Below are positions 1-45,479 of a stretch of 64,000 bases of DNA, one piece after another (positions within the stretch are counted from its first letter, which is position 1; every line of letters begins with the position of its first letter). The stretch spans positions 48,346-112,345 of the forward strand of contig JBOEHD010000063.1 of the NCBI GenBank assembly GCA_050633745.1. The letters run 5' to 3'. Position numbers and translations under genes: made by a program. Source of the stretch: Acidimicrobiales bacterium. Its GTDB lineage: Bacteria > Actinomycetota > Acidimicrobiia > Acidimicrobiales > SZUA-35. Under the pieces are notes generated by a model. It saw nothing but the letters and a program-made list of their open reading frames with translations, had not been told where the DNA came from and searched no databases.

Positions 1-374
1 CGGTCGCTCGCTCCATTCACCGCTACCGAGGCGATGCAAAATTCACCACCTGGCTCTACTCGGTGGCCCGCAACACCGCCATAACGGAGATTCGTCGTCA
101 ACAACCAACAGTAGTGATCGATGATCGGTACCTCGACCATATGGACCAGCGTCGGGTCAGCTCTCTCGTCGCCGAACGTGACCTATTGCGCGATGCGATT
201 TACTCCTTACCGCCCATTTTCCGGGAGACCGTTCTACTTAGGGACGTCGAACGACTGAGCTACAGCGAGATCGCTGAACGCCAGGGCCTGGCGATCAACA
301 CCGTTCGGTCTCGACTGTCTCGTGGGCGAGCTCTGCTGGCCGCGCTACTTCCAGATCAGCGATCGAACCGATGA
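1..374 (+). CDS. ECF-type RNA polymerase sigma factor, 5'-truncated by the window edge
   Basis: The reading frame is open from position 3 (VARSIHRYRGDAKFTTWLYSVARN...), a region-2-like segment matching the paralog at 9242-9934. Region 4 helix-turn-helix: SLPPIFRETVLLRDVERLSYSEIAERQGLAINTVRSRLSRGRALL. The stop overlaps the kinase start (ATGA at 371-374). Confidence 0.85.
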   Translation, partial: VARSIHRYRGDAKFTTWLYSVARNTAITEIRRQQPTVVIDDRYLDHMDQRRVSSLVAERDLLRDAIYSLPPIFRETVLLRDVERLSYSEIAERQGLAINTVRSRLSRGRALLAALLPDQRSNR

Positions 375-2062
375 CGCCCCTGCGCACCAAACGCTACATC
401 GGCGGCTACCGGGTCATCGCTCCGATCGGGGCTGGCGGATTTGCCACCGTGTACCGAGCGATCAACGAGGCGACCGGGCAAGAGGTTGCGATCAAAGTCC
501 TGGCCGAGAATCACAGCCTGGTCGCTGACACCAGACGTCGCTTTCTAGAAGAGATCGATCTGCTGAGAACGGTTGATAGCCAAGCCATCGCTCAGATATA
601 CGAGGTCGGTGAGACCGAGACCGACCAGCCATTCATGGTGTTGGAGCTGGCCGATCGAGGCGATCTCAGGCGGCGGCTTGAGGAGATAAGAAGTAGCCAC
701 CAGGTACTCAGCCGAGCCGAACTGGCGCTGCTGGCCCACCATCTCTACGACTCGTTGACCACGCTGCATCGGGCGGAGATCGTTCACCGCGACGTTTCGC
801 CCGGCAACATCTTGATCCGCAGCCACCAGAACACACCAAACACCAAGCAACCAAAGAGCGACGGTTCGGTGGCATTACTCGAACCAGGCGAGCGGTTACT
901 CCTAGCCGACTTGGGCCACGCCAAAGACATGATCCGAGCCTCCGGCTTTACCGCTGGCGGCGGGACACGGGGCTTCACCTCACCAGAACAGCGGGACGAC
1001 ATTACCGTCGTCGACCTGCGTGCCGACATCTTCAGCGCAACCGCGGTCATCGAATGGGCGGCTCACGACGGCGAATATGCCGAGATCCTCGAACCGTTCT
1101 TCGACGTAGGGCTGGCAGAAGACCCGGCAGACCGCTTCACCAGCATGACGGAGTGGCACGCGGCGTTCTCTGCGTCATTGAGCGCAGGCAGCGACGAAGA
1201 CACAGGCGGACCGTTGGCTCTCGGCTCGATGGTCGACTTCGCCAAGGGCCAAGCTCCGTCCGTCAATCGGCGAGCCATCAGCGTGGCGGTCGCCGCCCTA
1301 GCCCTCGGGGGCATGGCCGCCTTCGTGCTAACGCAGCTCAACACCCCGAACGAGATCGGCAATGGAACGACGGTGGCCGGAGTGAGGGCCGATGTAAATC
1401 CAGACATCGACGATGGAGCAGATGGTTCGCTCAACAGCGGCCCAACGCTCGTAGTTAAGGCAACCGATGAGGATCTTCTACCCGCCAGCCCAACGGCGCC
1501 ACTGATCCAGACCTCCGATGCTGACGGAACAGTCCCCGGGTCCCCTACGTCAAACCCCAGTAGCACCTCGCAAGGGCCGTCAACCACCGCTGAAAGTGCC
1601 AGCACCACGGTCAGCGTCACTACGACGAGTACGAGCACCAGCACAAGCACCACCGAGGCCAGCACGACAAGCACAGCACCTACCACCACCGAGCAGCCCG
1701 GCGGCGGCACCGATCCGTCAGCCGACATTCTTGAGCCGGCTGACGGCGGTCGGATCCGCAACGAGATGAGTATTGCAGGCGTCGCAGAGGGACTTGCCCC
1801 AGAAGGCCTGGTCCGTGTTGCGGTGGTTAACAGTTCGACAGACTTGTACTGGAACGCCGAGGAAGAACAGTTCCAGCCCGAGCCTGTGCGGTTCGATGTC
1901 AAGGTCGAGCAGGACGAAGATGACAGCCTCCCGGGAACCTGGGAATATACGATCCCGGCTGAACGACTTGAGTCGGGCCTGTATTACATCCGCGTGTGGG
2001 CCAGCGATGCCGATGACAACCTTCCGTTAGGCAGCGACACACATGCCGTGGAGGTTAGGTAG
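371..2062 (+). CDS. Membrane Ser/Thr protein kinase (Hanks-type) with an extracytoplasmic Ig-like C-terminal module
   Basis: Kinase motifs: GAGGFATVY, VAIKVL, HRDVSPGN, DLG, GTRGFTSPE. One TM segment (AISVAVAALALGGMAAFVL). A Ser/Thr/Pro-rich linker is followed by a C-terminal beta-type module (LYWNAEEEQF...WEYTIPAERLESGLYYIRVWASDADDN). Confidence 0.9.
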   Translation: MTPLRTKRYIGGYRVIAPIGAGGFATVYRAINEATGQEVAIKVLAENHSLVADTRRRFLEEIDLLRTVDSQAIAQIYEVGETETDQPFMVLELADRGDLRRRLEEIRSSHQVLSRAELALLAHHLYDSLTTLHRAEIVHRDVSPGNILIRSHQNTPNTKQPKSDGSVALLEPGERLLLADLGHAKDMIRASGFTAGGGTRGFTSPEQRDDITVVDLRADIFSATAVIEWAAHDGEYAEILEPFFDVGLAEDPADRFTSMTEWHAAFSASLSAGSDEDTGGPLALGSMVDFAKGQAPSVNRRAISVAVAALALGGMAAFVLTQLNTPNEIGNGTTVAGVRADVNPDIDDGADGSLNSGPTLVVKATDEDLLPASPTAPLIQTSDADGTVPGSPTSNPSSTSQGPSTTAESASTTVSVTTTSTSTSTSTTEASTTSTAPTTTEQPGGGTDPSADILEPADGGRIRNEMSIAGVAEGLAPEGLVRVAVVNSSTDLYWNAEEEQFQPEPVRFDVKVEQDEDDSLPGTWEYTIPAERLESGLYYIRVWASDADDNLPLGSDTHAVEVR

Positions 2063-2094
2063 TAGCTGCAGCCCCCCAACCGTCTGGGAACCAA

Positions 2095-3144
2095 GTGCCA
2101 CAAATCGAATCGGTCACCACCGAAGTCCTGGCGGGCAAGAATCTAATAAACGTCATCGTTCGAGTCCGCGACCGTGACGGCGCTGAGGGAACCGGCGAAG
2201 CCTGGTGGGGTATCCCCGACCGCACCGACCCTCCACGGGCGGCCACACCTATAACCGCGGTGATCGACGATCTGCTGGCACCAAGAGTTGTCGGCCGCGA
2301 CGCCGATCACATAGAGCGAATTTGGCACGAGCTATGGGACTGGGGCTACCGCTACGCCGACCAGGGCATCTTTCAGATGGGACTATCGGGACTCGACCTG
2401 GCCCTGTGGGATCTGAAAGGTAAACGCCTAGAACAGCCGGTGGCGTCGCTGCTCGGCGGGCCGGCGAGCGATGGCATCCGCGCCTACGCAAGCTTCCCGG
2501 CGCTGCGAACCCCAGAGCTTCTGGTCAGCGAGACCACCAGGGCGATCGAAGCGGGATTTGGGGCGATCAAGCTTCATGAGCTTGACCCTGAACTCACCGC
2601 GTTGCTGCGCAACGAGTTCGGCGACGAGGTGGAAATCATGGTCGATGTGAATGGCCACTTCGATCCGATCGAAGCCATCGAACACGGAAAACGGCTCAGC
2701 GAGCTCGGGGTGCTTTGGTTCGAGGAACCGGTGCGGCCTATGCGCGATCACCGAGCGCTGAAACGGGTGAACGACGCCATCGCCTGCGATCTTGCGGCGG
2801 GCGAAAACGAATACACCCTCGATGACTTTGATCGCCTACTCAAGACCGGGGCCATCGCCTACCTCCAACCGGAAATCACCAAGATCGGCGGCATGACGCC
2901 CGCCCGACGGGTCAGCGCCCTGGCCGAGCTCTACAACGTGGCACTCAGCCCTCACAACTTCCGTCTCGGGCCGTCGCTCTACGCGTCAATCCAATGGGCA
3001 TTCACCACCCCAGCTACAAGGTGGATGGAGATTCCATGGCTGCCACCGGGCTCGGAATTTTCGTTCCCAACCGTGCTGCCACCGATGAAAGACGGCATGG
3101 TTCTGCCGCTGACCGAACCCGGCCTCGGTGTTCTCGCAAGCTAA
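2095..3144 (+). CDS. Enolase-superfamily enzyme (mandelate racemase / muconate lactonizing enzyme family, probable acid-sugar dehydratase)
   Basis: Family signature segments: GEAWWG, KLHELD, MVDVNGHF, WFEEP, AAGENEY (the metal-ligand Asp/Glu/Glu pattern). GTG start. Confidence 0.85.
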   Translation: MPQIESVTTEVLAGKNLINVIVRVRDRDGAEGTGEAWWGIPDRTDPPRAATPITAVIDDLLAPRVVGRDADHIERIWHELWDWGYRYADQGIFQMGLSGLDLALWDLKGKRLEQPVASLLGGPASDGIRAYASFPALRTPELLVSETTRAIEAGFGAIKLHELDPELTALLRNEFGDEVEIMVDVNGHFDPIEAIEHGKRLSELGVLWFEEPVRPMRDHRALKRVNDAIACDLAAGENEYTLDDFDRLLKTGAIAYLQPEITKIGGMTPARRVSALAELYNVALSPHNFRLGPSLYASIQWAFTTPATRWMEIPWLPPGSEFSFPTVLPPMKDGMVLPLTEPGLGVLAS

Positions 3145-3197
3145 ACGTCACTCGGGTTTGATGGGCCTCCGGTTGCAGTCGGGCCTAGCCTGAATTC

Positions 3198-4076
3198 ATG
3201 GCAAGCGTCGAAGCAAACGGAATGACCATCGAGTACGACATCCGAGGCGATGGTGAACCGATGCTGCTCGTCATGGGTTTGGCAGGCCAGCTGGTCGACT
3301 GGCCAGACGACTTTGTCGACCTCTTCGTCGACCAGGGCTTCAAGGTCATTCGATTCGATAACCGAGATATCGGCTTGTCGACAAAAACCAACTGGACACC
3401 GCCGAGCGATGCCAAGACCCTGAGGTCAATGATCACTCGCCGCCCGCTACCCGGGGTCGGCTACACGATCAGCGACATGGCAGCCGATGCTGCAGGCTTG
3501 CTCGACGCACTGGGCATCGACGACGCCCACGTTGTCGGAATGTCGATGGGCGGCATGATCGCCCAGGAGCTGGCCATCAACCATCCGCAGAAGGTTCGTT
3601 CCCTCTGCTCGGTCATGTCCAACACCGGCGACCGCAAGAACGGCGGCATCGCCGCTTCTCTCCTAGCCAAGATGGCCCGTCGCAAACCACCGACAAAGGC
3701 CACTGCAGCCGACGCCTCGGTTGAGCTGTTCAGTCTGATTGCCGGACCGCACTATGACCCGATCGAGCATCGCAAGCTGGTGGCGTTGAACATCGAACGC
3801 AGTTTCGCCCCCGACGGTGTCGCCCGACAGACCGCAGCCATTGCCGGCAGTCGCAACCGCACGCCGTTCCTGGCGTTGGTGAAAGCGCCGACGCTGGTCA
3901 TCCACGGCCTGGTCGACCCGCTAGTGAAACCGAGCGGCGGTGTGGCCACCGCCAAAGCTATCCCCGGGGCCCGGCTGTTGGCCTTTCCCGACATGGGTCA
4001 TGACCTGCCGCGGCCCCGTTGGCCTGAGATGCGCGACGCCATCATCGAAAACTGCGGGCGGGCTGTAAGGGTCTAG
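3198..4076 (+). CDS. Alpha/beta-fold hydrolase
   Basis: Nucleophile elbow GMSMGG. N-terminal LLVMGLAG oxyanion region. C-terminal HGLVDP...GH typical of the fold. Confidence 0.85.
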   Translation: MASVEANGMTIEYDIRGDGEPMLLVMGLAGQLVDWPDDFVDLFVDQGFKVIRFDNRDIGLSTKTNWTPPSDAKTLRSMITRRPLPGVGYTISDMAADAAGLLDALGIDDAHVVGMSMGGMIAQELAINHPQKVRSLCSVMSNTGDRKNGGIAASLLAKMARRKPPTKATAADASVELFSLIAGPHYDPIEHRKLVALNIERSFAPDGVARQTAAIAGSRNRTPFLALVKAPTLVIHGLVDPLVKPSGGVATAKAIPGARLLAFPDMGHDLPRPRWPEMRDAIIENCGRAVRV

Positions 4077-4113
4077 TTCTGCCACCGGGTGCTGCGCGGG
4101 TTAGTTTTGCCCG

Positions 4114-4899
4114 ATGGATGTTCGTTTGGATGGTAGGAACGCTCTAATCACCGGTGGAAGTCTGGGCCTCGGCCTAGCTATGGCCACCGAATTCGCTCGA
4201 TCGGGGGCGACGGTGGCCATCGTTGGCCGCACCCAGGCAACCCTCGATGAGGCGGTGGCCAGCATCACCGCCGAGGCGCCAGAGGCCACGGTGCAGGCCT
4301 TTGCCTGCGACGTTCGAGACGCCGCTGCTCTGACCGCGACCCATGAGCAGGTCGTGGCGGCCATCGGCCCGATCGACATTCTGGTCAACAACGCAGGTAC
4401 GTCGGCGGCCATGCCGTTCCTGAAGTCAACCGACGAGGACTGGCAGAACGACCTCGACCTGAAGTTGTTGGCTGCGGTTCGCCTCTGTCGGCTTTGTATC
4501 CCGGCCATGGTTGAGGCCGGGCGGGGCCGAATCATCAACGTGCTAAACACCGCGGCCAAGGCGCCCGGTGCGAAGTCTGCCCCGACCTCGGTGAGCCGAG
4601 CGGCCGGCATGGCGCTGACCAAGGTGCTGGCCTCCGAGTTCGCATCATCAGGAATTCTGGTCAACGCATTGAACACCGGCGTTCTAAAAACCAGCCAGTG
4701 GCATCGCCTGCACACCGAACGTTCCCCGGAGCTGACGTTCGATGAGTTCATCGAGTCGGTCGGCAAGAACATCCCGGTTGGTCGTATGGGTGACGCGTCA
4801 GAGTTCGCCAACCTGGCCTGCTTCCTCGCCTCCGATCAGGCTTCATACATCACCGGAACCGCTATCAACGTCGACGGTGGCATGGCGCCGGTGGTTTGA
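4114..4899 (+). CDS. Short-chain dehydrogenase/reductase (SDR)
   Basis: Cofactor motif ITGGSLGLGLA and the NNAG motif. Length of about 260 aa is typical of a classical SDR. Confidence 0.9.
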   Translation: MDVRLDGRNALITGGSLGLGLAMATEFARSGATVAIVGRTQATLDEAVASITAEAPEATVQAFACDVRDAAALTATHEQVVAAIGPIDILVNNAGTSAAMPFLKSTDEDWQNDLDLKLLAAVRLCRLCIPAMVEAGRGRIINVLNTAAKAPGAKSAPTSVSRAAGMALTKVLASEFASSGILVNALNTGVLKTSQWHRLHTERSPELTFDEFIESVGKNIPVGRMGDASEFANLACFLASDQASYITGTAINVDGGMAPVV

Positions 4900-4927
4900 G
4901 CCAGCGGTTTGAGCCGCTCGCCAGCCA

Positions 4928-5332
4928 CTAGCCAGCAGCACCCGGGTGCAGCGGATCTTGACCCAGACGGTCGAGTCTCCGCAGCTGGGCCTTCACATAG
5001 TCTCGGGCGCGGCGTTGGCCGCCGCGCTCACCTATGGCCTCTTGGAGGCGTAGCAGCCCGGCCCGAACTACCTCCCGCCGCGGCTGCCAACCGCTGGCTT
5101 CACACTGCGCTAGCCACTGGCACGGTGTGCTGTGACCGCGACGGCTATTGCACCGCGAGCAGGCCGCCAACTCGTTCTCGATCCAGCTCGGACCACCTTT
5201 GAGCTTCGGGACAAGATGCTCAGTCGTCGCTCGGACCAGGGGTGTATCGATCTCGCGGTTGCACCAAACGCACCGCGCTCCGTCCCGTTCGAGGATCAGC
5301 AGCAGCCGGGCCGCTCGATCTACCTGAGCCAC
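4928..5332 (-). CDS. Stand-alone HNH endonuclease
   Basis: HNH/zinc-ribbon core CVWCNREID...TTEHLVPKLKGGPSWIENELAACSRCNSRRGH. The start is uncertain. The ORF is open to 5467 (TTG), but that would overlap the divergent gene at 5447. The GTG at 5332 gives the usual ~20 aa lead before the first Cys pair. Confidence 0.65.
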   Translation of the reverse strand: MAQVDRAARLLLILERDGARCVWCNREIDTPLVRATTEHLVPKLKGGPSWIENELAACSRCNSRRGHSTPCQWLAQCEASGWQPRREVVRAGLLRLQEAIGERGGQRRARDYVKAQLRRLDRLGQDPLHPGAAG

Positions 5333-5446
5333 AAATCCAATGGTAGGTCGACAAAAACCGATCTTGCGCGGAACTTTTGTTGACTTCGACGCGACGAACG
5401 TGCTTTCCCGGTCGGTTTGATCCGGCCACACGCCACTGGAGCACAA

Positions 5447-7513
5447 ATGCGTCTTCGTCCACCTCAAGCGTCTCGAGCCGGTTTAAGACAACTTGTTTTC
5501 CTACTGATCTTCGCCGCCTGTCTGATGGCTATGCCTGCGGCCGCCAATGCTCTGACCTCGCCACAAACCAAGGTCAAGTCCCCAGCCCAGGGCAGCATCG
5601 TCACCGCTGATGTGACGGTGAGAGGGTCGGCTAGCCATGGCCGTGGGGTCGCTGAGGTCAGGCTGGTGTTCAAGAACCTCGATGACCGTACCTACTGGAA
5701 CGGCCACGATTGGCAGGATGAGTTCGTGCGGTTCTCGGTACCGGTGGACCGCCCGGGGGCCAAACAAACCAGTTGGTCCTACGTCATGCCGTGGCAAGAA
5801 ATGACCGAAGGTAACTACCGGGCTCGGGCCTTTGCTCGCAGCGTCGATGGCAACGGTGATTCCAGTGGCGGCGACCGGAAAGAGTTCAGCTACCGCACGA
5901 ACCATGACCTATACGACACCGAGATAACCGGTCCGACGGGGGCGATCTCTGACGCCGAGCCGATCACCGTTGTGGGTCGAGGACGTTCGAGCGAAGGCGT
6001 GGCGCTGGTCAGGGTGGCGATCCACCATCGCGAATCCAAGCAGTACTGGAACGGCGAATCGCAGCAGTGGCAGAAACGTTATGTGAACAGTTTGGCTGAG
6101 CTCGATGAGCCAGGTGGGAACGACGTCAACTGGCAGGTGGTCATCCCGGCCGGCAGCAATCTTGTTGGGCACTACACCGCTCGGGCATGGGTTCGGACCT
6201 CGACCGACAAGGGGGACCCGTTCGGCCGTGGACGCACCAGCTTCGAAACTGTTGCAACACCGCCTCCGACTACAACAACGACGGTGCCTCCAACCACAAC
6301 ACCTCCAACCACAACACCACCAACCACCGCGCCACCAACCACTGCCCCACCGACGACTCGGCCGCCGACCACTACCCCACCGACCACAACCCCGCCGACC
6401 ACCGCGCCACCAACCACTACCCCACCGACCACGCAACCTCCAACCACCCAGCCGTCCACAACGGCGCCAACCACCGCCCCGCCGACTACCGCTCCTCCGA
6501 GCACACAGCCGCCGTGTGCCGGTGGGAACGCGGCGATTCTGGTGCCGTGCAGCGGTGTGCTGATCGGGGCCTCGGGAGACTTCAAGGCCGACGACGGGTC
6601 GTCACAATCTAAGCAGGATCACTTTGCCAGGATGGAGGAACGGCTCGATGCCGACTTCGACATCTTTCATGACTTCCTGCAGTGGCGAGACATGGTTAGC
6701 AAGACCTGGCCAAACGCCAAGACGCAGGCCCTAGCCGATGATGGCCACATCCTGCTGACCAACTGGAAGTCGCCGACGCAGAGCGTCACAGACTGGGCCA
6801 GAATCGCCGACGGCGTGTACGACGCCGACATTCGGACCGCCGCTGGTCAGGTCAAAGCCTTCGGTGAACCGACATTCATCACCTTCTTCCACGAACCGGA
6901 GGACAACATCCGCGACACCGCTGACGGCGACCAGGCCAAGGTTCAGCAGTACATCGATGACTACAGCGCGGCATTCCGCCACATCCACGATGTGTTCGAA
7001 TCGGCCGGTGCCGACAACGCCATCTGGGTGTGGGATATGCAGGGTTGGCTTGGCGGTTTCGAAAGCTACTACGAGAACGGCCTCTACCCCGGCGATGACA
7101 TCATCGACTGGGTCGGCTGGAACCCCTACAACTGGTACGGCTGCGAGAACCACAACAACCCACGGAAGTGGAAGACCTTCGATCAGGTGATCAGCCCGTT
7201 CTACAACTGGTTGGATGAGGGAGGGCCGAACCGGCCGTCGCTGGACAAGCCGATGATGCTCGGCGAATGGGGCAGCGAAGAAAACGATGGCGCCTCCAAT
7301 TCGAGCCAGACGAAGGCCGAGTGGCTCGACGATGCCCGTCGGATGCTTCCCACCCAATTCCCCCGCTTGCGGGCGGTGGTGTACTTCGACACCGAAGGGC
7401 GCAGGGCCGACAACACGGTGCAGTTCTGCGAGTGGGCCATCGACAGCAGCCCGAGTTCGATGGCTGCGATGACCTCGCTACTGACCGATCCGGTTCTAAC
7501 TGCTCGCTGGTAG
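5447..7513 (+). CDS. Secreted modular glycoside hydrolase: signal peptide, 2x Ig-like module, Pro/Thr linker, GH26-like catalytic domain
   Basis: Signal peptide MRLRPPQASRAGLRQLVFLLIFAACLMAMPAAANA. Two repeats of the module (TYWNGHDWQDEFVRFSVPV...SWSYVMP...GNYRARAFA and QYWNGESQQW...NWQVVIP...GHYTARAWV). About 85 aa of PPTTT repeats. The C-terminal domain has a GH26-style layout: IADGVYDADI...FITFFHEPEDN, IWVWD, YPGDDIIDWVGWNPYNW, KPMMLGEWG. Confidence 0.8.
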   Translation: MRLRPPQASRAGLRQLVFLLIFAACLMAMPAAANALTSPQTKVKSPAQGSIVTADVTVRGSASHGRGVAEVRLVFKNLDDRTYWNGHDWQDEFVRFSVPVDRPGAKQTSWSYVMPWQEMTEGNYRARAFARSVDGNGDSSGGDRKEFSYRTNHDLYDTEITGPTGAISDAEPITVVGRGRSSEGVALVRVAIHHRESKQYWNGESQQWQKRYVNSLAELDEPGGNDVNWQVVIPAGSNLVGHYTARAWVRTSTDKGDPFGRGRTSFETVATPPPTTTTTVPPTTTPPTTTPPTTAPPTTAPPTTRPPTTTPPTTTPPTTAPPTTTPPTTQPPTTQPSTTAPTTAPPTTAPPSTQPPCAGGNAAILVPCSGVLIGASGDFKADDGSSQSKQDHFARMEERLDADFDIFHDFLQWRDMVSKTWPNAKTQALADDGHILLTNWKSPTQSVTDWARIADGVYDADIRTAAGQVKAFGEPTFITFFHEPEDNIRDTADGDQAKVQQYIDDYSAAFRHIHDVFESAGADNAIWVWDMQGWLGGFESYYENGLYPGDDIIDWVGWNPYNWYGCENHNNPRKWKTFDQVISPFYNWLDEGGPNRPSLDKPMMLGEWGSEENDGASNSSQTKAEWLDDARRMLPTQFPRLRAVVYFDTEGRRADNTVQFCEWAIDSSPSSMAAMTSLLTDPVLTARW
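6258..6513 (+). repeat. Coding low-complexity tandem repeat (CCN-ACN units encoding the PPTT(T/A) linker)
   Basis: Visible DNA periodicity (ccaccaaccac / ccgccgaccac units). Translates as PPTTTPPTTTPPTTAPPTTAPPTTRPPTTTPPTT.... It also generates the spurious ORFs 5909-6436(-), 6105-6563(+), 6172-6585(-) and 6187-6612(+). Confidence 0.85.
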
Positions 7514-7550
7514 CCGCTCGAAGGCGACTCGACGCAGCTTCCGGCACGGC

Positions 7551-9245
7551 TCAGTCAGCGACGGCGACATACCGTTGATCGCTGACTGGGTCGTTGGCGT
7601 CGGAACCGATGGCCCAGACCCGAACGAAGTAGCGGCCGGGCGGCAATTCATCGGCGCCGACGGTATATGACCAGCTGACGTCGTTGGCCCCTGAAGGCGT
7701 TACCGGAACCAAAAACCTGATCCACTCCGACTCGAATGACCGAGTCGAGTCATGCCAATACTTCTTGTCTTGCTCCCGACGGATCACCAGGTTCACCCCG
7801 TCGATGCCGTCTCGGTAGCTGGCACTACCGAGAACTTCAAGGTCGGTGGCGATCAGCGATTCGTCGAGCGGGCTATCGATGAAGGCACGCGGTGAACCTA
7901 TAAACAGCGGATCGATCGTGGTTGTGGTCGTCTCTCGAACGCTGGTCTCTGGGATGCTGGTCGCCGCGGTTGTCGCTGGCGACGTTGTCGCTGGTGACGT
8001 TGTGTCTGATGTTGCTGGTGTTGTTGTCGCTGATGTTGTGGTCGCTGTGGTGGTTGTCTCTGTTGTCGTCGCTGTCGCTAATGTCGAGGTTGGCGAGCTA
8101 CTCTCGGGCGGCGGCGGGCTACTCTCGGTATCGGCGGAGGTAGCTGAGTCTGCAGTACTCGTTTCGGTCACAGGTGCAGGTGGTGCGGCCTGCGACGTTG
8201 AAAGGGCGGGCGTCGGCGACGCTACCGATTGTGAGCTGCCCGTCGCACTGGAGTCGGTAGTCGACGACCCGAAACGATCATTGGCAAACCAAACAGCGGC
8301 GACGATCGCTGACAGGGCCAGTAACGCCCCGGCGGTCAGATACTCTTTGCGGAAAGAACGACCGGCAGCTATCGGGTGGCTTTCGACGGGGCGGTTCCCG
8401 ACGGTGTGCGGCGGAGATCGGCGATCCAGAATGTGGGTTAGCTCGGCCGACCATTCGGCCATCGACGGGTGGCGATCCTGCGGATTGGCGGCCATGCCGG
8501 TAGCGATGAACTCGGCCAGCTGATCGTCTAGCTCACCACCTTCGACCATCCATCGGATCAGTGCGGTGGCGCCGTAGACATCAGCCCGATGATCGACAAC
8601 CGCGATTTCCTGCTGTTGTTCTGGAGCGGCAAAGCCGCGGGTGCCTCCACCCGCTGTCAGCCCGGAGGCGAAGTGCAGATCCTTAGCGAATCCTAGGTCG
8701 GCCATCAGGTAACGCTCGTCCGGTGCCAGCAGCAGCGAATCTCGGGCGACATGATCGCCAAGCGCTGTGGAGGTGGCGATCAAGACATTCCCCGGGGTGA
8801 CGTCTCGGTGCACGATCCCCGCTTCGTGCAGCACACCGAGAGCGACCCTCAGGTGCTCAGCCAAGGCCAGTGCATCGGCACGGTCCGGTGAGCGGCCGCC
8901 AGCTGTTCTGCCAAGTCGAAACTGTTCAACCCGTCGACCGAGGTCGCCCCGGTCGGCCAATTCGAGCACCATGTATGGTTGACCGGCATCGGTTTCGCCC
9001 TGGCCATAGACCGTGGCGACGGCCGGGCTTCGAATAGCCATCAGTAGCGCCGCTTCCTCGAGGAAACGCTGCCGTAGATCGGGGACCTTACTGTAGTTAT
9101 CTGCCAGCACCTTCACTGCAACTTCGGTGTCGGCATCCTCGTCGAAGGCCCGGTAAACCGAAGCCGAAGAGCCGACTCCAATCAGCTCAAGCAAGCGGTA
9201 GCGGCCGATGTAGCGGGGCTCGCTAGTGCGGGTGGTGCGGGTCAC
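7551..9245 (-). CDS. Membrane Ser/Thr protein kinase, paralog of 371-2062, with the same Ig-like ectodomain
   Basis: Motifs: GVGSSASVY, VAVKVL, HRDVTPGN, DLG, GTRGFAAPE. TM segment LTAGALLALSAIVAAVWF. Thr/Ser-rich linker. C-terminal module KYWHDSTRSFESEWIRFLVPV...SWSYTVGADELPPGRYFVRVWAIGSDAND. The GTG start overlaps the sigma stop (GTGA, 9242-9245). Confidence 0.9.
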   Translation of the reverse strand: MTRTTRTSEPRYIGRYRLLELIGVGSSASVYRAFDEDADTEVAVKVLADNYSKVPDLRQRFLEEAALLMAIRSPAVATVYGQGETDAGQPYMVLELADRGDLGRRVEQFRLGRTAGGRSPDRADALALAEHLRVALGVLHEAGIVHRDVTPGNVLIATSTALGDHVARDSLLLAPDERYLMADLGFAKDLHFASGLTAGGGTRGFAAPEQQQEIAVVDHRADVYGATALIRWMVEGGELDDQLAEFIATGMAANPQDRHPSMAEWSAELTHILDRRSPPHTVGNRPVESHPIAAGRSFRKEYLTAGALLALSAIVAAVWFANDRFGSSTTDSSATGSSQSVASPTPALSTSQAAPPAPVTETSTADSATSADTESSPPPPESSSPTSTLATATTTETTTTATTTSATTTPATSDTTSPATTSPATTAATSIPETSVRETTTTTIDPLFIGSPRAFIDSPLDESLIATDLEVLGSASYRDGIDGVNLVIRREQDKKYWHDSTRSFESEWIRFLVPVTPSGANDVSWSYTVGADELPPGRYFVRVWAIGSDANDPVSDQRYVAVAD

Positions 9246-9934
9246 GACAGTCGACCCGCAAGTAAGGCTCGACCTCGGGAAAGTCGCGACCGCACGGTGT
9301 TGATCTCAAGGCCCTGCCGTTTTGCGATCTCGGCATAGCTCAGGCCTTCGATATCTCGCAGCAGCACCGTCTCGCGAAAGATCGGGGGCAGCGAGTCAAT
9401 CGCCTCTCGCACCACCTCCCGCTGGGTCACAATTGAAGACATCCGCCGGAGGGTCTTGTTGGCCAGGAGGTCGCTCTCCGCTAGTTCGTCTTCCGGCCGA
9501 AGCCGACGGAGCTGACCGATGGCGACGTTGCGGGTCAGTGCATAGAGCCAGGTGGTGAACTTGGAATCGCCCCGGAATCGTTCGATCGAACCGCTGACCG
9601 CTACCAGCACCTCCTGCTCGATGTCCTCGATCAGTGCCCCATTGTTAGAGAGCCGAGCGATAGCCGGAGCGGCCAGGTCGAGTTGGTCAACAAGACGCAG
9701 CAGCAGCTCAAGGCCGCGCTCCGAACCGGTCGCTGCCGAAGCGGCCACGAGATCTACCACCGTGGAGTCGACGCCAGCAAGCGAGACCAAACGATCGCCT
9801 GCCGCGGCCGACCCTGCGGTGTACGCCACGAGCAACTCAGCAGCGGAGGAAAACGATTGCGGCGATGACTGCGGCGGCGCTGGCGGCGGCGCCGTTGCCG
9901 AACGACGACTCCCGCTACTCCGCCGCCTTATCAC
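9242..9934 (-). CDS. ECF-type sigma factor, paralog of 1-374, with a long Ser/Ala/Pro-rich N-terminal extension
   Basis: Region 2: EDIEQEVLVAVSGSIERFRGDSKFTTWLYALTRNVAIGQLRR. Region 4: SLPPIFRETVLLRDIEGLSYAEIAKRQGLEINTVRSRLSRGRALL. GTG start at 9934. Confidence 0.85.
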   Translation of the reverse strand: MIRRRSSGSRRSATAPPPAPPQSSPQSFSSAAELLVAYTAGSAAAGDRLVSLAGVDSTVVDLVAASAATGSERGLELLLRLVDQLDLAAPAIARLSNNGALIEDIEQEVLVAVSGSIERFRGDSKFTTWLYALTRNVAIGQLRRLRPEDELAESDLLANKTLRRMSSIVTQREVVREAIDSLPPIFRETVLLRDIEGLSYAEIAKRQGLEINTVRSRLSRGRALLAGRLS

Positions 9935-10015
9935 GGTCTCACTCTATTCGGTTGGACAAGTACCGTCTACAGCCAGCTCGGGCGGTGACAGCTCGGGCCA
10001 GGCTGCCGGCCCGCG

Positions 10016-11335
10016 CTACGAAGTGAGGGTAGCCGCCGTCGATTGGTTGAGCTGGTCGATGCCCTGGATGATCTCCAACATGGTGGCAGAAGCCGACTCG
10101 ACGTCGCTCCGAGCCCGGTCGGTGGTATCACGCTGCTCTCGTACCCCGGTCTCGACCTGCTGCTGACGACCGACGATCGAGTCGACAAGCTCGGCAACGC
10201 CCGATACCCGGGTAGCGGAACTGGTCACCCGGGAACGTAGATCGTCGGTGATCTCTCGGATCTGGTCGGTGGCCTGTGAAGTCTGCTTTGCCAGGTCCTT
10301 CACTTCGGTTGCGACCACGGTGAAGCCGCGTCCGGCGGTGCCAGCTCGCTCGGCTTCGATGGTGGCATTTAGAGCGAGGAGATTGGTCTTGTTGGCAATG
10401 TCGGAGATCAGGTCGACCATCTCGGTGATTCGACGACTCCGCTCATCGAGTTCTTCGACGACCTGCTGTGTGGTCGAGGCCTCGTCGTTGGCCCGCAGGG
10501 CCAACTCCAGAACCTGATGAACCTCGTCGGAGATTGCGCTCGAAGTCTCGGTCATCGTTGTCATCGTTGATGATGTCTCGCCGATCATTTCTCGCACACG
10601 GGCCGAAGACGAAGCCAAATCAGAGGAGCGTCGGGCGACATCTTCGGCCTGGGCCACCTGTTGTTCGAGGTTCTGCCGCTGGCTCTCGGCGAGAACGATA
10701 CTCTCGTCGCTGAGCAGCTTCTGTCGCTCCATCGTGGCGTCCTGTTGTGCCGATAACATCAGCCATCGGTCATGCTGCAGTTGCAGTGTGTACCAGTTGA
10801 TGGATAGCGCCCCGATCAGCATCAGGACGAAGAAGACGTGCACCGCAGTCCACAACAGCGGATTCTGTTGCCCACGCTCGTGCTCAAAAAGGATGGCCGG
10901 ATCATAGACACTCAACGTGGCGTGGTGGACTGCGGTGAAGCCCACCACCGCTACGAACGGCCGCAGGTCGACATACAGAGCGGTCAGTGTGAGCACAACA
11001 AACCAATGGAAGTGAGCCTCGATGATGCCGCCGCTGAAGTGAATTAGAGTTGCTGCTGCGTAGACGAGACCCACCGAAGTGGCGATGGAACGAATCAGGC
11101 GGTGCATCTCACTCAGGCCAAGGACGCCAAGTACAAACACCGGCAAGGTCTCAACAGAGGCATGCCACAGGGCATAGTCCTTGAGTAGTCCGATAGCTAA
11201 CAACACCGGGATGTGTAGCAAGAGAGTACGGGTGATTAGTCGATGACGGAACTCGAACTGTTCGTCATCGATGGCTCGTCCGTTTGGAATATGGTCCTTA
11301 AAGCCAGTCACCCTTAAGTTGTCGGACTCCGTCAT
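10016..11335 (-). CDS. Methyl-accepting chemotaxis protein (MCP) signalling-domain protein with an N-terminal polytopic membrane domain
   Basis: Highly conserved MCP hairpin tip: [36 protein letters not shown]. The N-terminal ~200 aa hold 5-6 hydrophobic helices rich in His ([23 protein letters not shown]). I prefer the ATG at 11335 (MTESDNL) over the track start at 11419, because 11419 would overlap the divergent gene at 11380. Confidence 0.8.
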
Positions 11336-11379
11336 CCAAAAACTAAGCAAAAAGTCAGGCTGACATATCGGCCGAATCG

Positions 11380-13437
11380 ATGAAAGGACTCTGGGTGTCA
11401 AGGACCTTGGGGGCGTCACGAATTATTCGAAGAGCGACAATAGTGGCTGTTGCAATTTGTATAACCTGGCTCGGGCTTCTGCCCGGCGATGCAGGCGCGA
11501 TCACTGACGATCCTGACGTCGACACCTTCGCCGCGTATGAGTATCGCATCGACCCCGACCGAGGTGTTGTCGATGTAACGATCAACATGGCGGTGACGGC
11601 AGACAAACCGAATCGCACATTGAGCAGCGGCGACTACTACGAGTACTACTTTCAGGGCTATTTCCTGGCTGTTCCAGAAGAGGCGATCGACCTCAGGGTG
11701 ACCGACGCAGCCGACCGGGCCCTGAACTTCGAGGTGAACACCGAGAACGAAGGTTTCTCGATCCTGGACATCGATTTCCGCCGCAATATCTTTTACCGGC
11801 AAACCGCTGACGTGGTGGTGACGTACAGCCTGCCAAAGGGAGAAGCGCGCAGCGATGCTCCAGCCAGGGTTAATGAGGCCTATGCCGGGTTTTCGATATG
11901 GCTGACGCCGCAACTCGAAGGTGCTTCGGTGACTGTTGTCAGCCCAAAAGGGTTCGATAATGAAAGTACCGGTTCCGAACCGTTCAAGATCGAATCAAAT
12001 GCCGATGAGACTCTGTTTATCGCCGAAGACGTAGACCCGGAGGACTACTGGGCACTGGTCTCGTTAGCCCGAGACCAGTCTCTGACTACTACCGAACTCT
12101 CCATCGCGGGCAACGCCATCGAGGTCAGCGCTTGGCCAGACGATGCGGCCTGGTCCGAACATGTGACCATCAACCTTGAACAGGGTCTTCCTCGACTCAT
12201 CGAAACCGTCGGCCAGCCATGGCCCATCGACGGCGAGTTGGCGATCATCGAGTCGTACTCGCCATACCTGCTCGGTTACGCAGGCTGGTATGACCCGACC
12301 ACAAACCAGATCGAAATCGGCGACGAACTCGACAGCCATCTCGTCTTCCATGAGCTATCGCACGTGTGGTTCAACGATGAGCTCTTCGGCAAGCGGTGGA
12401 TCACCGAGGGGCTATCCGACGTGTTCGGAGCGGCGGTGGTCGAATCGATGGATCAGGAGCGGCCGAGGCCGCCGTCGACCTCGCTGCTCGACCCTATCGC
12501 CGGGCCGCTCAACGAGTGGAGTCAATTCGACCGTGATCCCGAGGTCGAAAGCTGGTCATACGATGCCAGCTGGACGGTGACCGAGGCCATCGCTGAAGCG
12601 GTAGGGATCGAGGTGCTGTCCGATGTAGTGCAGGCCGCGGCGGAAGACGAGATCTCGTACCTGGGCGATGGGCCACCTGAATCAGACTCGAGGGACGACG
12701 GCTGGCGGCGATACCTCGATCTCATCGAGAACCGGGGAGCGGTAACCGACGACAGCATCACCGATCTGTTCAGTGAGTGGGTAGTACCCGACCCGCTGAA
12801 GCCCATGCTGGCTAAGCGCTCGGAACATCGCGGCCGCTATGGGGAGCTGGTTGAGAGGGGTGAGACCTGGGCTGCACCTCACGCCGTTCGAGTCGCCATG
12901 TCGGAGTGGGAGTTCGACGACGCCGATGATCTTATGGCCGCTTCGGAGGCGATCTTGGACCGTCGAGAGCTGGTTTATGGGGTTCTTGCCCCGCTCGAAG
13001 CTTCGCTGCCAGCGAAGCTAGAAGCGGACTACGAGCACGCCACCTCAGACTTGCGCCAAACCTCATCGCTGATGACCGAGGTTGAGGACAGCGCCGACCA
13101 ACTCCGGCGTTCCTATGAAGCGGTGGAGAGCGTTTCAGGTCCGCTGCAGTGGGTGGGAGCGCTTGGCACCGACTACCCGACGGACTTCGATGAGGCTGTA
13201 TCGGCCTTCGAACGCGGCAACCTCACCGCCGCGACGGCTCAGAGCCGTGCAGTCGATGAGGAAGTTGCCGATCTTAGGAACCGAGGACTGTTCCGAGTGA
13301 TCTCGGTAGCCGTCGGAGTATTGCTTTGTATTGGCTTGCTTGCGGTGATCCTCAGCCGGCGGCGATATCGCCGCCGGCTGAATGCATCAGTGCAAGTTAG
13401 CGCCGCTGCAACAGAAGCTGATAGCAGCGCTAGTTAG
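11380..13437 (+). CDS. Secreted, C-terminally membrane-anchored zinc metallopeptidase (gluzincin, M1-like / peptidase MA clan)
   Basis: Signal peptide. HELSHVWF (HExxH) followed by WITEGLS (the Glu third ligand). C-terminal TM plus basic tail: [27 protein letters not shown]. Confidence 0.8.
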
Positions 13438-44375: not shown

Positions 44376-45479
44376 ATGTGGCGGAAGCGGGGAATTCGGA
44401 GCGGTGCTATTTGGGTATTGCTGTTCGCAGCGATATCTCTTTTTGGGTGCGCAAGTGGGAAGGACGAGGGAACAGCGATCAGCGGCGAAACCGCGGTCGC
44501 TTCGCCGACAATAGCGTCCGAAGCGGCGACCACTTCGTCCGAGCCGGAAACCACGACGACCACCGAGCCACCACCCCCGGACTACGCCGCTATATACCTA
44601 CAGCTACACGACGAGGCGGTGGCATTCATCATGAACCCGCTCGAACAACCGAGCGATGCGATCAACTGTGTGCAGAACGTCGACTGCATTGTGGTTAAGA
44701 ACCAAGCGATCGACGGCCAGTTCTGGAGGGGCATGGGCTCGGACAATCTGACCGTCAGCTCCGTTGAGGTACTAGACGAAATCAGCTCCGACCTGGTCCA
44801 TCTCAAGGTGACCGTCAACGCCGAAGAACTAATCGAGTTAGTCGACTCCAACGGCGAGGTTATCGAGTCGGTCGGAGTCCCAACCGACGCCGCCGAGCGG
44901 GTTGCACTTATCAAACAGGGTGAGGGTTGGATCTTCTCCGGACCCTCGGATGGGCGGCGTTGGGAGCGCTCAAGGTACGAAGCACCGCCGGAGCCGTTCA
45001 GCCTCGACGATCCGCTCGATGAGCCGATGACTCCGACCGGCGAAGAGGGCGTGACCGACGATGGGGTGGCCTGGCGAACCCTGACCACCGAGGACCGTTT
45101 TTGTCTTGAAGCCTCGACACCATCGATCGGCAAGATGACTAGATGCCTGTCTGCGCCACCCTGGGACGTTGGCGCCCTGCGCTACTCAATGAACTTTTCG
45201 GGGGACTCGGCGACTGGCCAGGAATACATCGTCATGTGGTTCGGGCTGAAGGTCGACGAGGCCGCAATATTCTTCGAGGACGACACGGAGCAACGCACAC
45301 GATTCTTCCCGGTCGACTCCTCGGCTGCATTCAGAGACGATGTCGAACTGTCGATCGCCATATCAAAGATCGACCAACGTCCATTGGCGGTCTCGGCCTA
45401 TGGGCCGGAAACCGAGTCCCACAAAACTACGTTCGATTGGCCGGTCCCGAAGGACAACCCCAACGACACCGACGGCTAG
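44376..45479 (+). CDS. Hypothetical lipoprotein
   Basis: Signal peptide with lipobox (LLFAAISLFGCASG) and a Thr/Pro linker (TTSSEPETTTTTEPPPP). I recognise no domain. Confidence 0.7.
   Translation: MWRKRGIRSGAIWVLLFAAISLFGCASGKDEGTAISGETAVASPTIASEAATTSSEPETTTTTEPPPPDYAAIYLQLHDEAVAFIMNPLEQPSDAINCVQNVDCIVVKNQAIDGQFWRGMGSDNLTVSSVEVLDEISSDLVHLKVTVNAEELIELVDSNGEVIESVGVPTDAAERVALIKQGEGWIFSGPSDGRRWERSRYEAPPEPFSLDDPLDEPMTPTGEEGVTDDGVAWRTLTTEDRFCLEASTPSIGKMTRCLSAPPWDVGALRYSMNFSGDSATGQEYIVMWFGLKVDEAAIFFEDDTEQRTRFFPVDSSAAFRDDVELSIAISKIDQRPLAVSAYGPETESHKTTFDWPVPKDNPNDTDG

What the first reader, a model, noticed from the sequence alone, without database searches (positions are those of the whole stretch)
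1..9934. Two paralogous, translationally coupled ECF-sigma/Ser-Thr-kinase modules in inverted orientation, with no anti-sigma factor
Pair 1 (sigma 1-374, kinase 371-2062, plus strand) and pair 2 (sigma 9242-9934, kinase 7551-9245, minus strand) share the same architecture.
- In each pair the sigma gene's stop overlaps the kinase start (ATGA and GTGA).
- Sigma region 4 is nearly identical at protein level (SLPPIFRETVLLRD[VI]E.LSY.EIA.RQGL.INTVRSRLSRGRALL).
- The DNA has diverged at synonymous sites, so the duplication is old and has been maintained.
- No ZAS or other anti-sigma gene is adjacent to either pair.

Some ECF groups are known to be genomically linked to Ser/Thr kinases instead of anti-sigma factors, and at least one ECF sigma is known to be activated by threonine phosphorylation. 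These pairs are candidates for that mode of control.

Sigma 2 also has a ~100 aa Ser/Ala/Pro-rich N-terminal region (MIRRRSSGSRRSATAPPPAPPQSS...) that could carry phospho-acceptor sites. An MCP-domain gene sits 81 nt upstream of it on the same strand.
Basis: partly seen in the sequence, partly recalled or inferred. Interest (0 to 1): 0.65.

Follow-up and report, generated by a model that had tools for sequence, protein, structure and literature searches.

The report
Paired sigma-factor/kinase switches flanking a glycanase
Two old duplicate operons in an uncultured Acidimicrobiales bacterium each pair an alternative sigma factor with a membrane Ser/Thr kinase instead of an anti-sigma factor, and they flank a secreted glycanase gene that carries the sigma-type promoter and the same outer domain as the kinases; this is a new, testable variant of a known but little-studied way of controlling transcription.

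Summary
Sigma1 (cut by the window edge, 1-374 +) with kin1 (371-2062 +), and sigma2 (9242-9934 -) with kin2 (7551-9245 -), are paralogous ECF-sigma/Hanks-kinase operons with 4-nt stop/start overlaps. Synonymous sites are saturated and no anti-sigma gene is adjacent.

In 19 of 19 related Acidimicrobiia loci a kinase directly follows the sigma. In 69 loci with more distant sigmas it never does.

This is not the characterised ECF43 mechanism. The acidic sigma2.2 residues are kept (xxE[ED]), with no Ser/Thr there. Family-specific invariant serines lie elsewhere, notably RRxSS at the linker/sigma4 junction. Only about 55 residues of the "~100 aa N-terminal tail" are extra, and half of those form a conserved, confidently folded two-helix add-on. 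The kinases lack the catalytic-loop lysine (HRDV[S/T]PGN).

New findings:
- An ECF-type promoter motif, GGAACTTTT-N12-GCGAC, is found only next to these modules (7 distinct sites; none expected).
- In the window it sits at 5370-5396, in front of ORF 5417-7513. That ORF is a secreted GH26-like glycanase with two copies of the kinases' Ig-like extracytoplasmic domain.
- The sigma operon itself has a housekeeping-type -10 and a leaderless GTG start.

Phosphorylation itself is untested. Verdict: a new variant of a known kind.

The parts
1..374 (+). Sigma1, the 3' part of an ECF sigma gene (frame from base 3). The full protein is P0051 (227 aa). RRVSS is encoded at 150-164.
371..2062 (+). kin1, a single-pass membrane Hanks-type kinase (563 aa). 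Kinase domain 407-1225, HRDVSPGN 785-808, transmembrane helix 1277-1339, Ser/Thr/Pro-rich linker, Ig-like domain 1733-2059.
9242..9934 (-). Sigma2, an ECF sigma (230 aa) with a GTG start. Disordered residues 1-30, conserved two-helix add-on 31-56, sigma2.2 'LIED' at 9623-9634, RRMSS at 9434-9448.
7551..9245 (-). kin2, a single-pass membrane Hanks-type kinase (564 aa). Kinase domain 8406-9200, HRDVTPGN 8787-8810, transmembrane helix 8283-8342, Ig-like domain 7554-7895.
9941..9946 (-). TAGAGT, a housekeeping-type -10-like hexamer 6 nt before the sigma2 GTG. TAGRGT-N6-8-GTG is conserved upstream of every family sigma, implying a leaderless transcript.
5370..5396 (+). ECF-type promoter-like motif GGAACTTTTGTTGACTTCGACGCGACG (-35 GGAACTTTT, -10 GCGAC). 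It lies in the gap between the HNH gene and ORF 5417.
5417..7513 (+). Secreted protein and likely target gene. It has a signal peptide, two Ig-like repeats (5552-5854 and 5939-6235) homologous to the kinases' C-terminal domain, a Pro/Thr linker, and a GH26-like catalytic domain (about 6620-7474). It converges on kin2, with 37 nt between the stop codons.
10016..11419 (-). MCPsignal-domain membrane protein, 81 nt upstream of sigma2 on the same strand. It is a conserved neighbour (76% identical in L082). The true start is probably near 11311.

Best explanation
**What it is.** Each pair is a two-gene signalling operon. An ECF-type sigma factor is co-translated with a single-pass membrane Hanks-type Ser/Thr kinase. 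The kinase takes the genomic place, and has the membrane topology, of an anti-sigma factor.

**Expression.** The operon appears to be made constitutively. It has a conserved housekeeping-type -10 (TAGRGT) and a leaderless GTG start. Control would therefore be post-translational.

**Proposed mechanism.**
1. The kinase reads an extracytoplasmic cue through its C-terminal Ig-like domain.
2. It phosphorylates its cognate sigma.
3. This changes the sigma's ability to work with RNA polymerase.

The sigma keeps the acidic E-[E/D] of region 2.2, so the ECF43 trick does not apply. The likeliest acceptor is the invariant RRxSS at the end of the disordered sigma2-sigma4 linker, by analogy with linker phosphosites in EcfK and SigH. 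Other family-specific invariant serines (the two 'GS' motifs, S116) are alternatives.

**Output.** The active holoenzyme would use promoters of the form GGAACTTTT-N12-GCGAC. In this window the only such site drives a secreted GH26-like glycanase. That enzyme carries two copies of the same Ig-like domain as the kinases, so sensor and output enzyme probably recognise the same ligand, most likely a polysaccharide.

**Shown:** gene anatomy, strict synteny, residue conservation, motif enrichment and its placement.

**Inferred:** phosphotransfer to sigma, its site and its sign (activating or inhibiting), the ligand, and which of the two sigmas uses the promoter.
For: **Linkage**
- A kinase follows the sigma at -4 to +25 nt in 19 of 19 related loci.
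- No kinase lies within 10 kb in 69 loci with more distant sigmas.
- No conserved anti-sigma gene is present. Upstream neighbours vary: a divergent methyltransferase, a CDP-alcohol transferase, or a lipoprotein.

**Sigma**
- The sigmas pass the ECF superfamily model (73-76 bits against a cut-off of 42.9) and have the ECF fold.
- S166/S167 of RRxSS are invariant in 118 sequences and sit at the edge of the low-confidence linker.
- Linker phosphosites activate EcfK (PMC13147305).

**Kinase**
- The kinases keep the Gly-loop, VAIK Lys, HRD Asp, Asn, DxG Asp and the GT..PE segment.

**Promoter motif**
- GGAACTTTT occurs 9 times in 336 kb of family loci, against 0.5 expected.
- The full motif occurs 8 times, against 0 in 200 simulations.
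- Every site lies within 600 bp of a module.
- The motif was defined on the window, L008, L082 and L083. It was then found as predicted in the newly fetched L084/85, L086/87 and L090.
- In four genomes it sits just upstream of the ORF 5417 homologue.

**Shared domain and target enzyme**
- The Ig-like domain is shared by both kinases and ORF 5417. The model has pLDDT 88.7 and an Ig-like fold.
- The GH26-like domain matches CtLic26A at E 6e-25, with both aligned catalytic-position Glu residues kept.

**Operon promoter**
- TAGRGT-N6-8-GTG is conserved upstream of all sigma genes in the family.
Against: - There is no experimental or structural evidence of a sigma-kinase contact or of phosphotransfer.
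- The catalytic-loop Lys of HRDxKxxN is replaced by Ser, Thr or Ala in all but one module. This could mean weak or no protein kinase activity.
- The sigma keeps an acidic sigma2.2 motif, so it may bind core RNA polymerase without modification. It would then need an inhibitor rather than an activator.
- The promoter motif was not found near sigma1-type modules.
- In two genomes the motif points antisense into the kinase gene rather than at a glycanase.
- The Ig-like fold is generic (TM 0.55-0.63 to unrelated E-set domains), so carbohydrate binding is a guess.
- A different sigma elsewhere in the genome could use the motif.
Confidence: 0.5

Rival explanations
1. The kinase acts mainly as the anti-sigma factor. 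Its cytoplasmic kinase-like domain holds the sigma at the membrane, or inhibits it by phosphorylation. The extracytoplasmic signal then releases the sigma. Catalysis may be weak, or may be ATPase-like.
For: - The kinase has the same position (+1, coupled) and the same topology (cytoplasmic N-domain, one transmembrane helix, outer sensor) as classical anti-sigma factors.
- The catalytic-loop Lys is lost in 20 of 21 modules checked.
- The sigma keeps the acidic sigma2.2 residues and seems constitutively expressed from a housekeeping-type promoter. A negative regulator is therefore needed, and none other is encoded nearby.
Against: - All other catalytic residues are strictly conserved across sequences that have otherwise diverged to 40-50% identity. 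Pure scaffolds usually lose them.
- No anti-sigma domain is detectable.
- No precedent is known to me for a Hanks kinase domain sequestering an ECF sigma.
Confidence: 0.25
2. Sigma activity is governed chiefly by its own N-terminal add-on, through autoinhibition or processing, as proposed for SigC/ECF36 or pro-BldN. The kinase would modulate this only indirectly.
For: - A conserved N-terminal extension repeats the first helix motif: LVxQLExGSxxAExRL against LDxLAxSAAxGSPYxLELLL.
- The extension is predicted as two confident helices packed with sigma2.
- It is absent from the most distant module, L009, whose kinase is canonical.
- N-terminal extensions are a recognised ECF regulatory device (PMC7826278).
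Against: - The extension is short and is predicted as an integral part of the sigma2 domain, not a separate lid.
- This idea does not explain the strict kinase linkage.
- No protease or partner gene is conserved nearby.
Confidence: 0.1
3. The sigma and the kinase are merely co-expressed. The kinase phosphorylates other substrates, and the sigma is controlled only by abundance.
For: - Bacterial Hanks kinases usually have several substrates (general knowledge).
- No phosphosite evidence exists here.
Against: - Linkage is invariant, with 4-nt overlaps or gaps of 25 nt or less across 19 loci. The sigma and the kinase diverge together, faster than their neighbours.
- Family-specific invariant serines occur in the sigma.
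- ECF43 pairs provide a precedent for a direct link.
Confidence: 0.1

Closest known systems
ECF43 sigma/kinase pairs (EcfP-PknT of Vibrio parahaemolyticus; EcfK-PknS of Xanthomonas citri)
   Same: An ECF sigma is encoded next to a transmembrane Hanks-type kinase, with no anti-sigma factor. The kinase has a variable extracytoplasmic sensor domain. EcfK also has functional phosphosites in the sigma2-sigma4 linker (PMC8999054; PMC13147305).
   Different: - ECF43 lacks the DAED motif (STTA in EcfP) and is switched on by a phospho-Thr there. This family keeps E-[E/D] and has no Ser/Thr in the motif.
- This family has an N-terminal helical add-on.
- Its kinases lack the catalytic-loop Lys.
- It belongs to a different phylum (Acidimicrobiia).
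Other kinase-linked ECF groups (ECF59-62, ECF217, ECF267, and ECF283 of Actinobacteria)
   Same: Kinase-linked, usually without an anti-sigma factor, and reported to keep DAED-like acidic residues, with the mechanism unknown (PMC7826278; PMC8999054). ECF283 is actinobacterial (Nocardioides).
   Different: None of these groups has been characterised experimentally. Membership could not be tested because no group HMMs or member sequences were available. Among the loci fetched, the only sigma relative from the Nocardioides order (Granulicoccus, L062, 34% identity) has no kinase within 10 kb.
SigI/RsgI polysaccharide-sensing pairs of Clostridium thermocellum
   Same: Several paralogous sigma/sensor pairs exist per genome. 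The membrane sensor carries an extracellular module of the kind found on the secreted glycoside hydrolases it controls. The output is glycanase genes (PMC4711584, PMC6852018).
   Different: - There the sensor is a true anti-sigma factor, released by proteolysis. Here it is a Ser/Thr kinase.
- The sigmas belong to a different family.
- Carbohydrate binding by the Ig-like domain here is unproven.
Mycobacterium tuberculosis SigH and PknB
   Same: An actinobacterial ECF sigma is phosphorylated by a Hanks kinase on linker threonines (PMC13147305).
   Different: SigH has a dedicated anti-sigma factor (RshA). PknB is not encoded with it. The effect of SigH phosphorylation is unknown.

Membership tests
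ECF (group 4) sigma-70 factors | Only the sigma2 and sigma4 domains are present, and the protein matches ECF models | tested here: met
   Pfam Sigma70_r2 and Sigma70_r4_2. TIGR02937 scores 73-76 bits against a cut-off of 42.9. The AF2 model best matches sigmaE, SigH, AlgU and SigW.
ECF43 | Ser/Thr kinase gene in the neighbourhood and no anti-sigma factor | tested here: met
ECF43 | The DAED motif of sigma2.2 is replaced by uncharged residues that include the phospho-acceptor Thr/Ser | tested here: not met
   The family columns read [VLI][AVI]E[ED]. The Ser/Thr fraction is 0-0.04 over 118 sequences. Sigma2 has LIED and sigma1 has VAEE.
ECF283 or any other named kinase-linked ECF group | Assignment by the ECF classification HMMs | not testable with these tools
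   No group HMMs or member sequences were available. The papers give only group names and one accession.
Hanks-type Ser/Thr protein kinases | Gly-rich loop, beta3 Lys (VAIK), HRD Asp, catalytic Asn, DFG Asp, and the P+1/APE segment | tested here: met
   GAGGFATV / VAIK / HRD / N / DLG / GTRGF(T/A)(S/A)PEQ are present in both kinases and in the relatives. Pkinase matches at E 9e-30 and 2e-22.
Hanks-type Ser/Thr protein kinases | Catalytic-loop lysine of HRDxKxxN | tested here: not met
   HRDVSPGN in kin1 and HRDVTPGN in kin2, aligned to HRDIKPSN and HRDLKPQN of solved kinases. Only the distant L009 keeps the Lys.
Class I (ASD/ZAS) anti-sigma factors | Anti-sigma domain or HxxxCxxC motif in an adjacent gene | tested here: not met
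   No such Pfam hit in any flanking ORF of the window or of the relatives. The gene upstream of sigma1-type modules is a predicted lipoprotein with no cytoplasmic domain.
Glycoside hydrolase family 26 (ORF 5417-7513, C-terminal domain) | Sequence similarity to GH26 enzymes, with both catalytic Glu positions kept | tested here: met
   CtLic26A (2vi0) at E 6e-25 over 283 residues. 'HE' and 'GEW' align to 'HE' and 'AEF'. Which residues are catalytic is taken from memory. No Pfam or NCBIfam model passed.

The most novel reading that the evidence does not exclude
This would be an Acidimicrobiia-specific sigma/kinase circuit that senses an extracellular glycan, or its own secreted enzyme, through an Ig-like module shared between the sensor kinase and the regulated GH26 glycanase. 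It would be a kinase-based counterpart of the clostridial SigI/RsgI biomass sensors. The sigma would be switched by phosphorylation of the invariant RRxSS at the sigma4 N-cap, not by the ECF43 sigma2.2 mechanism. The kinases doing this would have a catalytic loop in which the canonical lysine has been replaced by Ser or Thr.
Probability: 0.3. Interest if true: 0.7.

Novelty: new variant of a known kind. Interest (0 to 1): 0.5.

Why it matters
Direct control of sigma factors by Ser/Thr kinases has been shown for only one ECF group (ECF43). For the other kinase-linked groups, which keep the acidic sigma2.2 motif, the mechanism is an open question.

This family offers a compact and specific test case:
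- defined candidate phosphosites;
- a predicted target promoter;
- a predicted target gene;
- a sensor domain shared with that target;
- two diverged paralogues side by side, which allows cross-talk tests.

It would also link Ser/Thr kinase signalling to polysaccharide degradation in Acidimicrobiia, an abundant but little-cultured lineage.

Tried and rejected
- **Exact-sequence look-ups.** Look-ups of kin1, P0051 and P0001 found no contig. The window's own upstream flank could therefore not be read. The closest relative (L089) was used instead.
- **Profile search with the four Ig-like domain copies.** It returned a single hit, so the wider distribution of the domain stays unknown.
- **Fold search of the Ig-like domain.** It gave only generic Ig-like/E-set matches. 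No ligand can be inferred.
- **Built-in sigma-70 promoter scan.** It found nothing in 7400-10200. It requires an E. coli-like -35 and -10. The TAGRGT element was found by comparing loci instead.
- **ECF group assignment.** It was not possible. Supplementary files of the classification paper are not held, and Iyer et al. 2020 and Huang et al. 2015 are not in the library.
- **Search for the promoter motif, or a variant, near sigma1-type modules.** Only scattered intragenic GGAAC-N-CGAC matches turned up, and I regard these as chance.
- **A TGAACTTTT-N-GCGAC match at window 45190-45214.** It lies inside an ORF and was set aside.
- **Pfam scan of ten other large ORFs in the window.** No PP2C phosphatase, FHA domain or further sigma or anti-sigma genes were found among them.
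- **ECF43 membership.** Considered and rejected.
Full report
**1. The observation**

- Sigma1 is cut by the window edge. It runs in frame from base 3 to the TGA at 372-374. The kin1 ATG is at 371-373, giving the ATGA overlap.
- Sigma2 runs on the minus strand from GTG 9934 to TGA 9244-9242. The kin2 GTG is at 9245-9243, giving the GTGA overlap.
- Pfam finds Sigma70_r2 and Sigma70_r4_2 in both sigmas, and Pkinase in both kinases.
- The sigmas are 63% identical over 115 residues, and 85% over region 4. The kinases are 43% identical.
- At four-fold degenerate sites within identical residues, 67-77% of bases differ. That is saturation, so the duplication is old.
- The MCPsignal gene ends 81 nt before sigma2. 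No anti-sigma domain is adjacent to either pair.

The full-length sigma1 was recovered as P0051 (227 aa; its last 123 residues are identical to the window fragment). Sigma2 appears as P0001 (99% identical). Both are recorded on a 115-kb contig of an Acidimicrobiales metagenome-assembled genome.

**2. The linkage is conserved and specific**

A scan of one genome per species with P0051 returned 80 loci.
- In the 11 Acidimicrobiia loci whose sigma is 42-73% identical, a kinase of the same family follows on the same strand. The spacing runs from a 4-nt overlap to a 25-nt gap.
- None of the other 69 loci (sigmas 41% identical or less; Paenibacillus, Verrucomicrobiota, Nitrospirota and others) has such a kinase within 10 kb.
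- Eight further loci, fetched through individual sigma homologues, show the same arrangement.
- In total, 19 of 19 non-redundant relatives have a kinase directly after the sigma.

Two lineages exist.
- The sigma1/kin1 type is well conserved (sigma C-terminal part 74-81% identical to sigma1, kinase domain 69-77%).
- The sigma2/kin2 type is more divergent.

The contig behind L082 and L089, from a related genome, carries both modules in the same inverted layout. The same enolase-family, hydrolase, SDR and GH26 genes lie between them, plus a three-gene insert.

**3. No anti-sigma factor**

Genes upstream of sigma1-type modules vary. They include a divergent methyltransferase, a CDP-alcohol phosphatidyltransferase, and in four loci a 281-321-aa protein.
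- In L089, the closest relative, that protein has a lipoprotein-type signal peptide and no cytoplasmic domain. It is therefore not a conventional anti-sigma factor.
- A separate, canonical ECF sigma with a long downstream gene lies nearby on the other strand in some loci. It is a distinct pair.

**4. Anatomy of the sigmas**

I aligned 118 family members with E. coli RpoE, whose sequence I supplied from memory.
- *N-terminus.* Residues 57-100 of sigma2 are the ordinary N-terminal part of an ECF sigma. The real extension is about 55 residues.
  - AlphaFold2 (53-sequence alignment, mean pLDDT 88) predicts residues 1-30 as disordered. Residues 16-29 are an insertion unique to sigma2.
  - Residues 31-56 form two helices with pLDDT above 95, continuous with the sigma2 domain.
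  - This add-on repeats the sequence pattern of the first canonical helix: LVxQLExGSxxAExRL against LDxLAxSAAxGSPYxLELLL.
- *Sigma2.2.* The motif that reads DAED in typical ECFs reads [VLI][AVI]E[ED] here (LIED in sigma2, VAEE in sigma1). It contains essentially no Ser/Thr.
  - The defining feature of ECF43 is loss of the acidic motif and its replacement by a phosphorylatable Thr (PMC8999054). That feature is therefore not met.
- *Conserved serines.* Family-specific invariant serines are S42 and S71 (the two GS motifs; the second aligns with Asp of the RpoE 'GD'), S116, and S166-S167.
  - S166-S167 are 100% conserved within RRxSS. The motif lies at the end of the low-confidence linker (pLDDT below 50 for residues 157-165) and at the start of the first sigma4 helix.
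  - Linker phosphosites are functional in EcfK and are present in M. tuberculosis SigH (PMC13147305).

**5. Anatomy of the kinases**

Both kinases have the same layout: kinase domain, one transmembrane helix, a Ser/Thr/Pro-rich linker, and a C-terminal domain of about 110 residues.
- All catalytic landmarks are conserved except one. The lysine of HRDxKxxN is Ser in kin1 and in ten relatives, Thr in kin2, and Ala in L010. It is Lys only in the most distant module, L009.
- Alignment to solved kinases confirms the position.
- The L009 sigma also lacks the N-terminal add-on and keeps 'GDP' and 'DADD'. The unusual features of sigma and kinase therefore seem to have arisen together.
- From memory, RIO and Bud32 atypical kinases carry Ser or Thr at this position. 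I treat this as a lead, not a test.

**6. The extracytoplasmic domain is shared with a neighbouring enzyme**

The C-terminal domain of both kinases is homologous to two tandem repeats at the N-terminus of ORF 5417-7513, which lies between the two modules.
- The domain is predicted confidently (pLDDT 88.7) as an Ig-like beta sandwich. Matches to solved structures are generic only. They include the sulfite oxidase dimerisation domain, a porphyran-binding module, and accessory domains of glycoside hydrolases.
- ORF 5417 also has a signal peptide and a Pro/Thr linker.
- Its C-terminal domain is similar to the GH26 enzyme CtLic26A (E 6e-25). Both Glu residues at the aligned catalytic positions are kept.
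- Kinases in other genomic contexts carry the same domain. It is therefore a family trait, not a local recombination product.

**7. A module-associated promoter motif**

Comparing the region upstream of ORF 5417 with its L082 counterpart exposed a conserved block.
- The block is GGAACTTTTGTYGACWTCGACGCGACG, at window 5370-5396. This is the form of an ECF promoter: -35 GGAAC, 17 nt, CGAC.
- It lies in the gap between the HNH gene and ORF 5417. Comparison with L082 puts the true HNH start near 5332.
- In 336 kb of family loci, GGAACTTTT occurs 9 times, against 0.5 expected. GGAACTTTT-N12-GCGAC occurs 8 times, against none in 200 simulations.
- Removing overlaps leaves seven full sites and one partial site. 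All lie within 600 bp of a sigma-kinase module.
- The motif was derived from the window, L008, L082 and L083. It was then found as predicted in the later-fetched L084/85, L086/87 and L090.

Placement of the sites:
- In four genomes the motif precedes the ORF 5417 homologue. In one of these the homologue also carries a GH16 domain.
- In L008 it lies upstream of the sigma, on the same strand.
- In L009 a partial copy is divergent from the sigma.
- In L083 and L086/87 it sits right after the kinase stop codon and points back into the kinase gene. A strong hairpin follows.
- No copy was found near sigma1-type modules, although region 4.2 is almost identical in the two types.

**8. Expression of the operon**

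Upstream of every sigma gene in the family, the only conserved element is (C)AATAGRGT, 6-8 nt before the GTG start. In the window this is TAGAGT at 9941-9946.
- It fits the actinobacterial housekeeping -10 (TAnnnT, or TAGRRT; from memory) with a leaderless transcript.
- It supports GTG 9934 as the true start, as does the conserved N-terminus M-[IV]-[RW]-R.
- It suggests constitutive expression, which is consistent with post-translational control.

**9. Interpretation**

The best-supported reading is a sigma/kinase signalling module of the known kinase-linked ECF kind. Its output includes the GH26-like glycanase, and its sensor shares a domain with that enzyme. In logic it resembles the clostridial SigI/RsgI polysaccharide sensors (PMC4711584, PMC6852018), with a kinase in place of the anti-sigma factor.

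The mechanism of sigma control is not the ECF43 one. Phosphorylation of RRxSS is my preferred guess. The main rival is that the kinase, which lacks its catalytic-loop lysine, acts as the negative regulator by binding or by inhibitory phosphorylation. This is plausible because the sigma looks intrinsically competent and constitutively made.

None of this has been tested biochemically.

**10. Novelty**

Kinase-linked ECF groups are known: ECF43, ECF59-62, ECF217, ECF267 and ECF283 (PMC7826278). Only ECF43 has been characterised. I could not test whether this family belongs to ECF283, the actinobacterial group.

The combination found here makes it a new variant of a known kind:
- the acidic sigma2.2 motif is retained;
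- the sigma has a helical N-terminal add-on;
- RRxSS is invariant;
- the kinase loop lacks its lysine;
- the Ig-like sensor domain is shared with the target enzyme;
- the promoter is defined.

Interest is moderate.

Noticed in passing
window 9941-9946 (-), and upstream of the sigma genes in L001-L007, L011, L081-L088: A conserved (C)AATAGRGT lies 6-8 nt before the GTG start of every sigma in the family. It looks like a housekeeping-type -10 with a leaderless mRNA. It argues against the shorter start used in the public annotation of P0001.
   Followed up: partly
L083 2740-2765 (-); L086 10556-10589 (-) (same as L087 5686-5719): The sigma-type promoter motif sits directly after the kinase stop codon, pointing antisense into the kinase gene. 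A strong hairpin follows 130-190 nt later. This could be a sigma-dependent antisense or small RNA, or a relic of a lost convergent glycanase gene.
   Followed up: partly
window 7513-7551: The motif-driven GH26 gene and kin2 converge, with only 37 nt between their stop codons. No terminator-like site was found there, so read-through would be antisense to the sigma2-kin2 operon.
   Followed up: no
window 7551-9934 compared with L082 7704-10081: Sigma2 and kin2 are only 55% and about 45-62% identical to their L082 counterparts. The flanking genes are far closer (MCP 76%, HNH 84%, GH26 domain 85%). The module is either evolving much faster or has been replaced by a paralogue.
   Followed up: partly
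L089 8581-9432; L090 859-1710; L001 504-1349; L003 8789-9754: A protein of about 283 aa, a predicted lipoprotein of unknown function with no Pfam hit, lies directly upstream of sigma1-type modules on the same strand. The L089 and L001 copies are 55% identical. It is probably also present just before window position 1.
   Followed up: partly
L009 338-2225: This is the most distant module. Its sigma lacks the N-terminal add-on and keeps canonical 'GDP' and 'DADD'. Its kinase keeps the catalytic-loop Lys (HRDLKPSN). The unusual sigma and kinase features therefore co-vary.
   Followed up: partly
window 4928-5467 (-): An HNH-domain gene, with its true start probably near 5332, is 84% identical to a gene that in L082 lies immediately upstream of the sigma instead. 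It has changed position relative to the module between related genomes.
   Followed up: partly
window 10016-11419 (-): This MCPsignal protein has a multi-helix membrane N-terminal part and no recognised ligand-binding domain. It is a conserved neighbour of the sigma2-type module in L082. Its start is probably near 11311.
   Followed up: partly
window 11380-13437 (+): A 685-aa ORF contains an HExxH motif (FHELSHVW) and a C-terminal hydrophobic segment, but has no Pfam match. It may be an unclassified metallopeptidase.
   Followed up: no
L002 5110-5658 (-), L004 8198-8758 (-), L005 8204-8764 (-), L088 6380-6934 (-): A separate, canonical ECF sigma gene is followed by a 605-639-aa ORF, possibly its anti-sigma factor. 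This pair lies 1-3 kb upstream of sigma1-type modules, on the opposite strand.
   Followed up: no
window 45190-45214 (+): A near-match to the promoter motif (TGAACTTTT-N11-GCGAC) lies inside a lipoprotein-like ORF (44376-45479). It is probably chance.
   Followed up: partly
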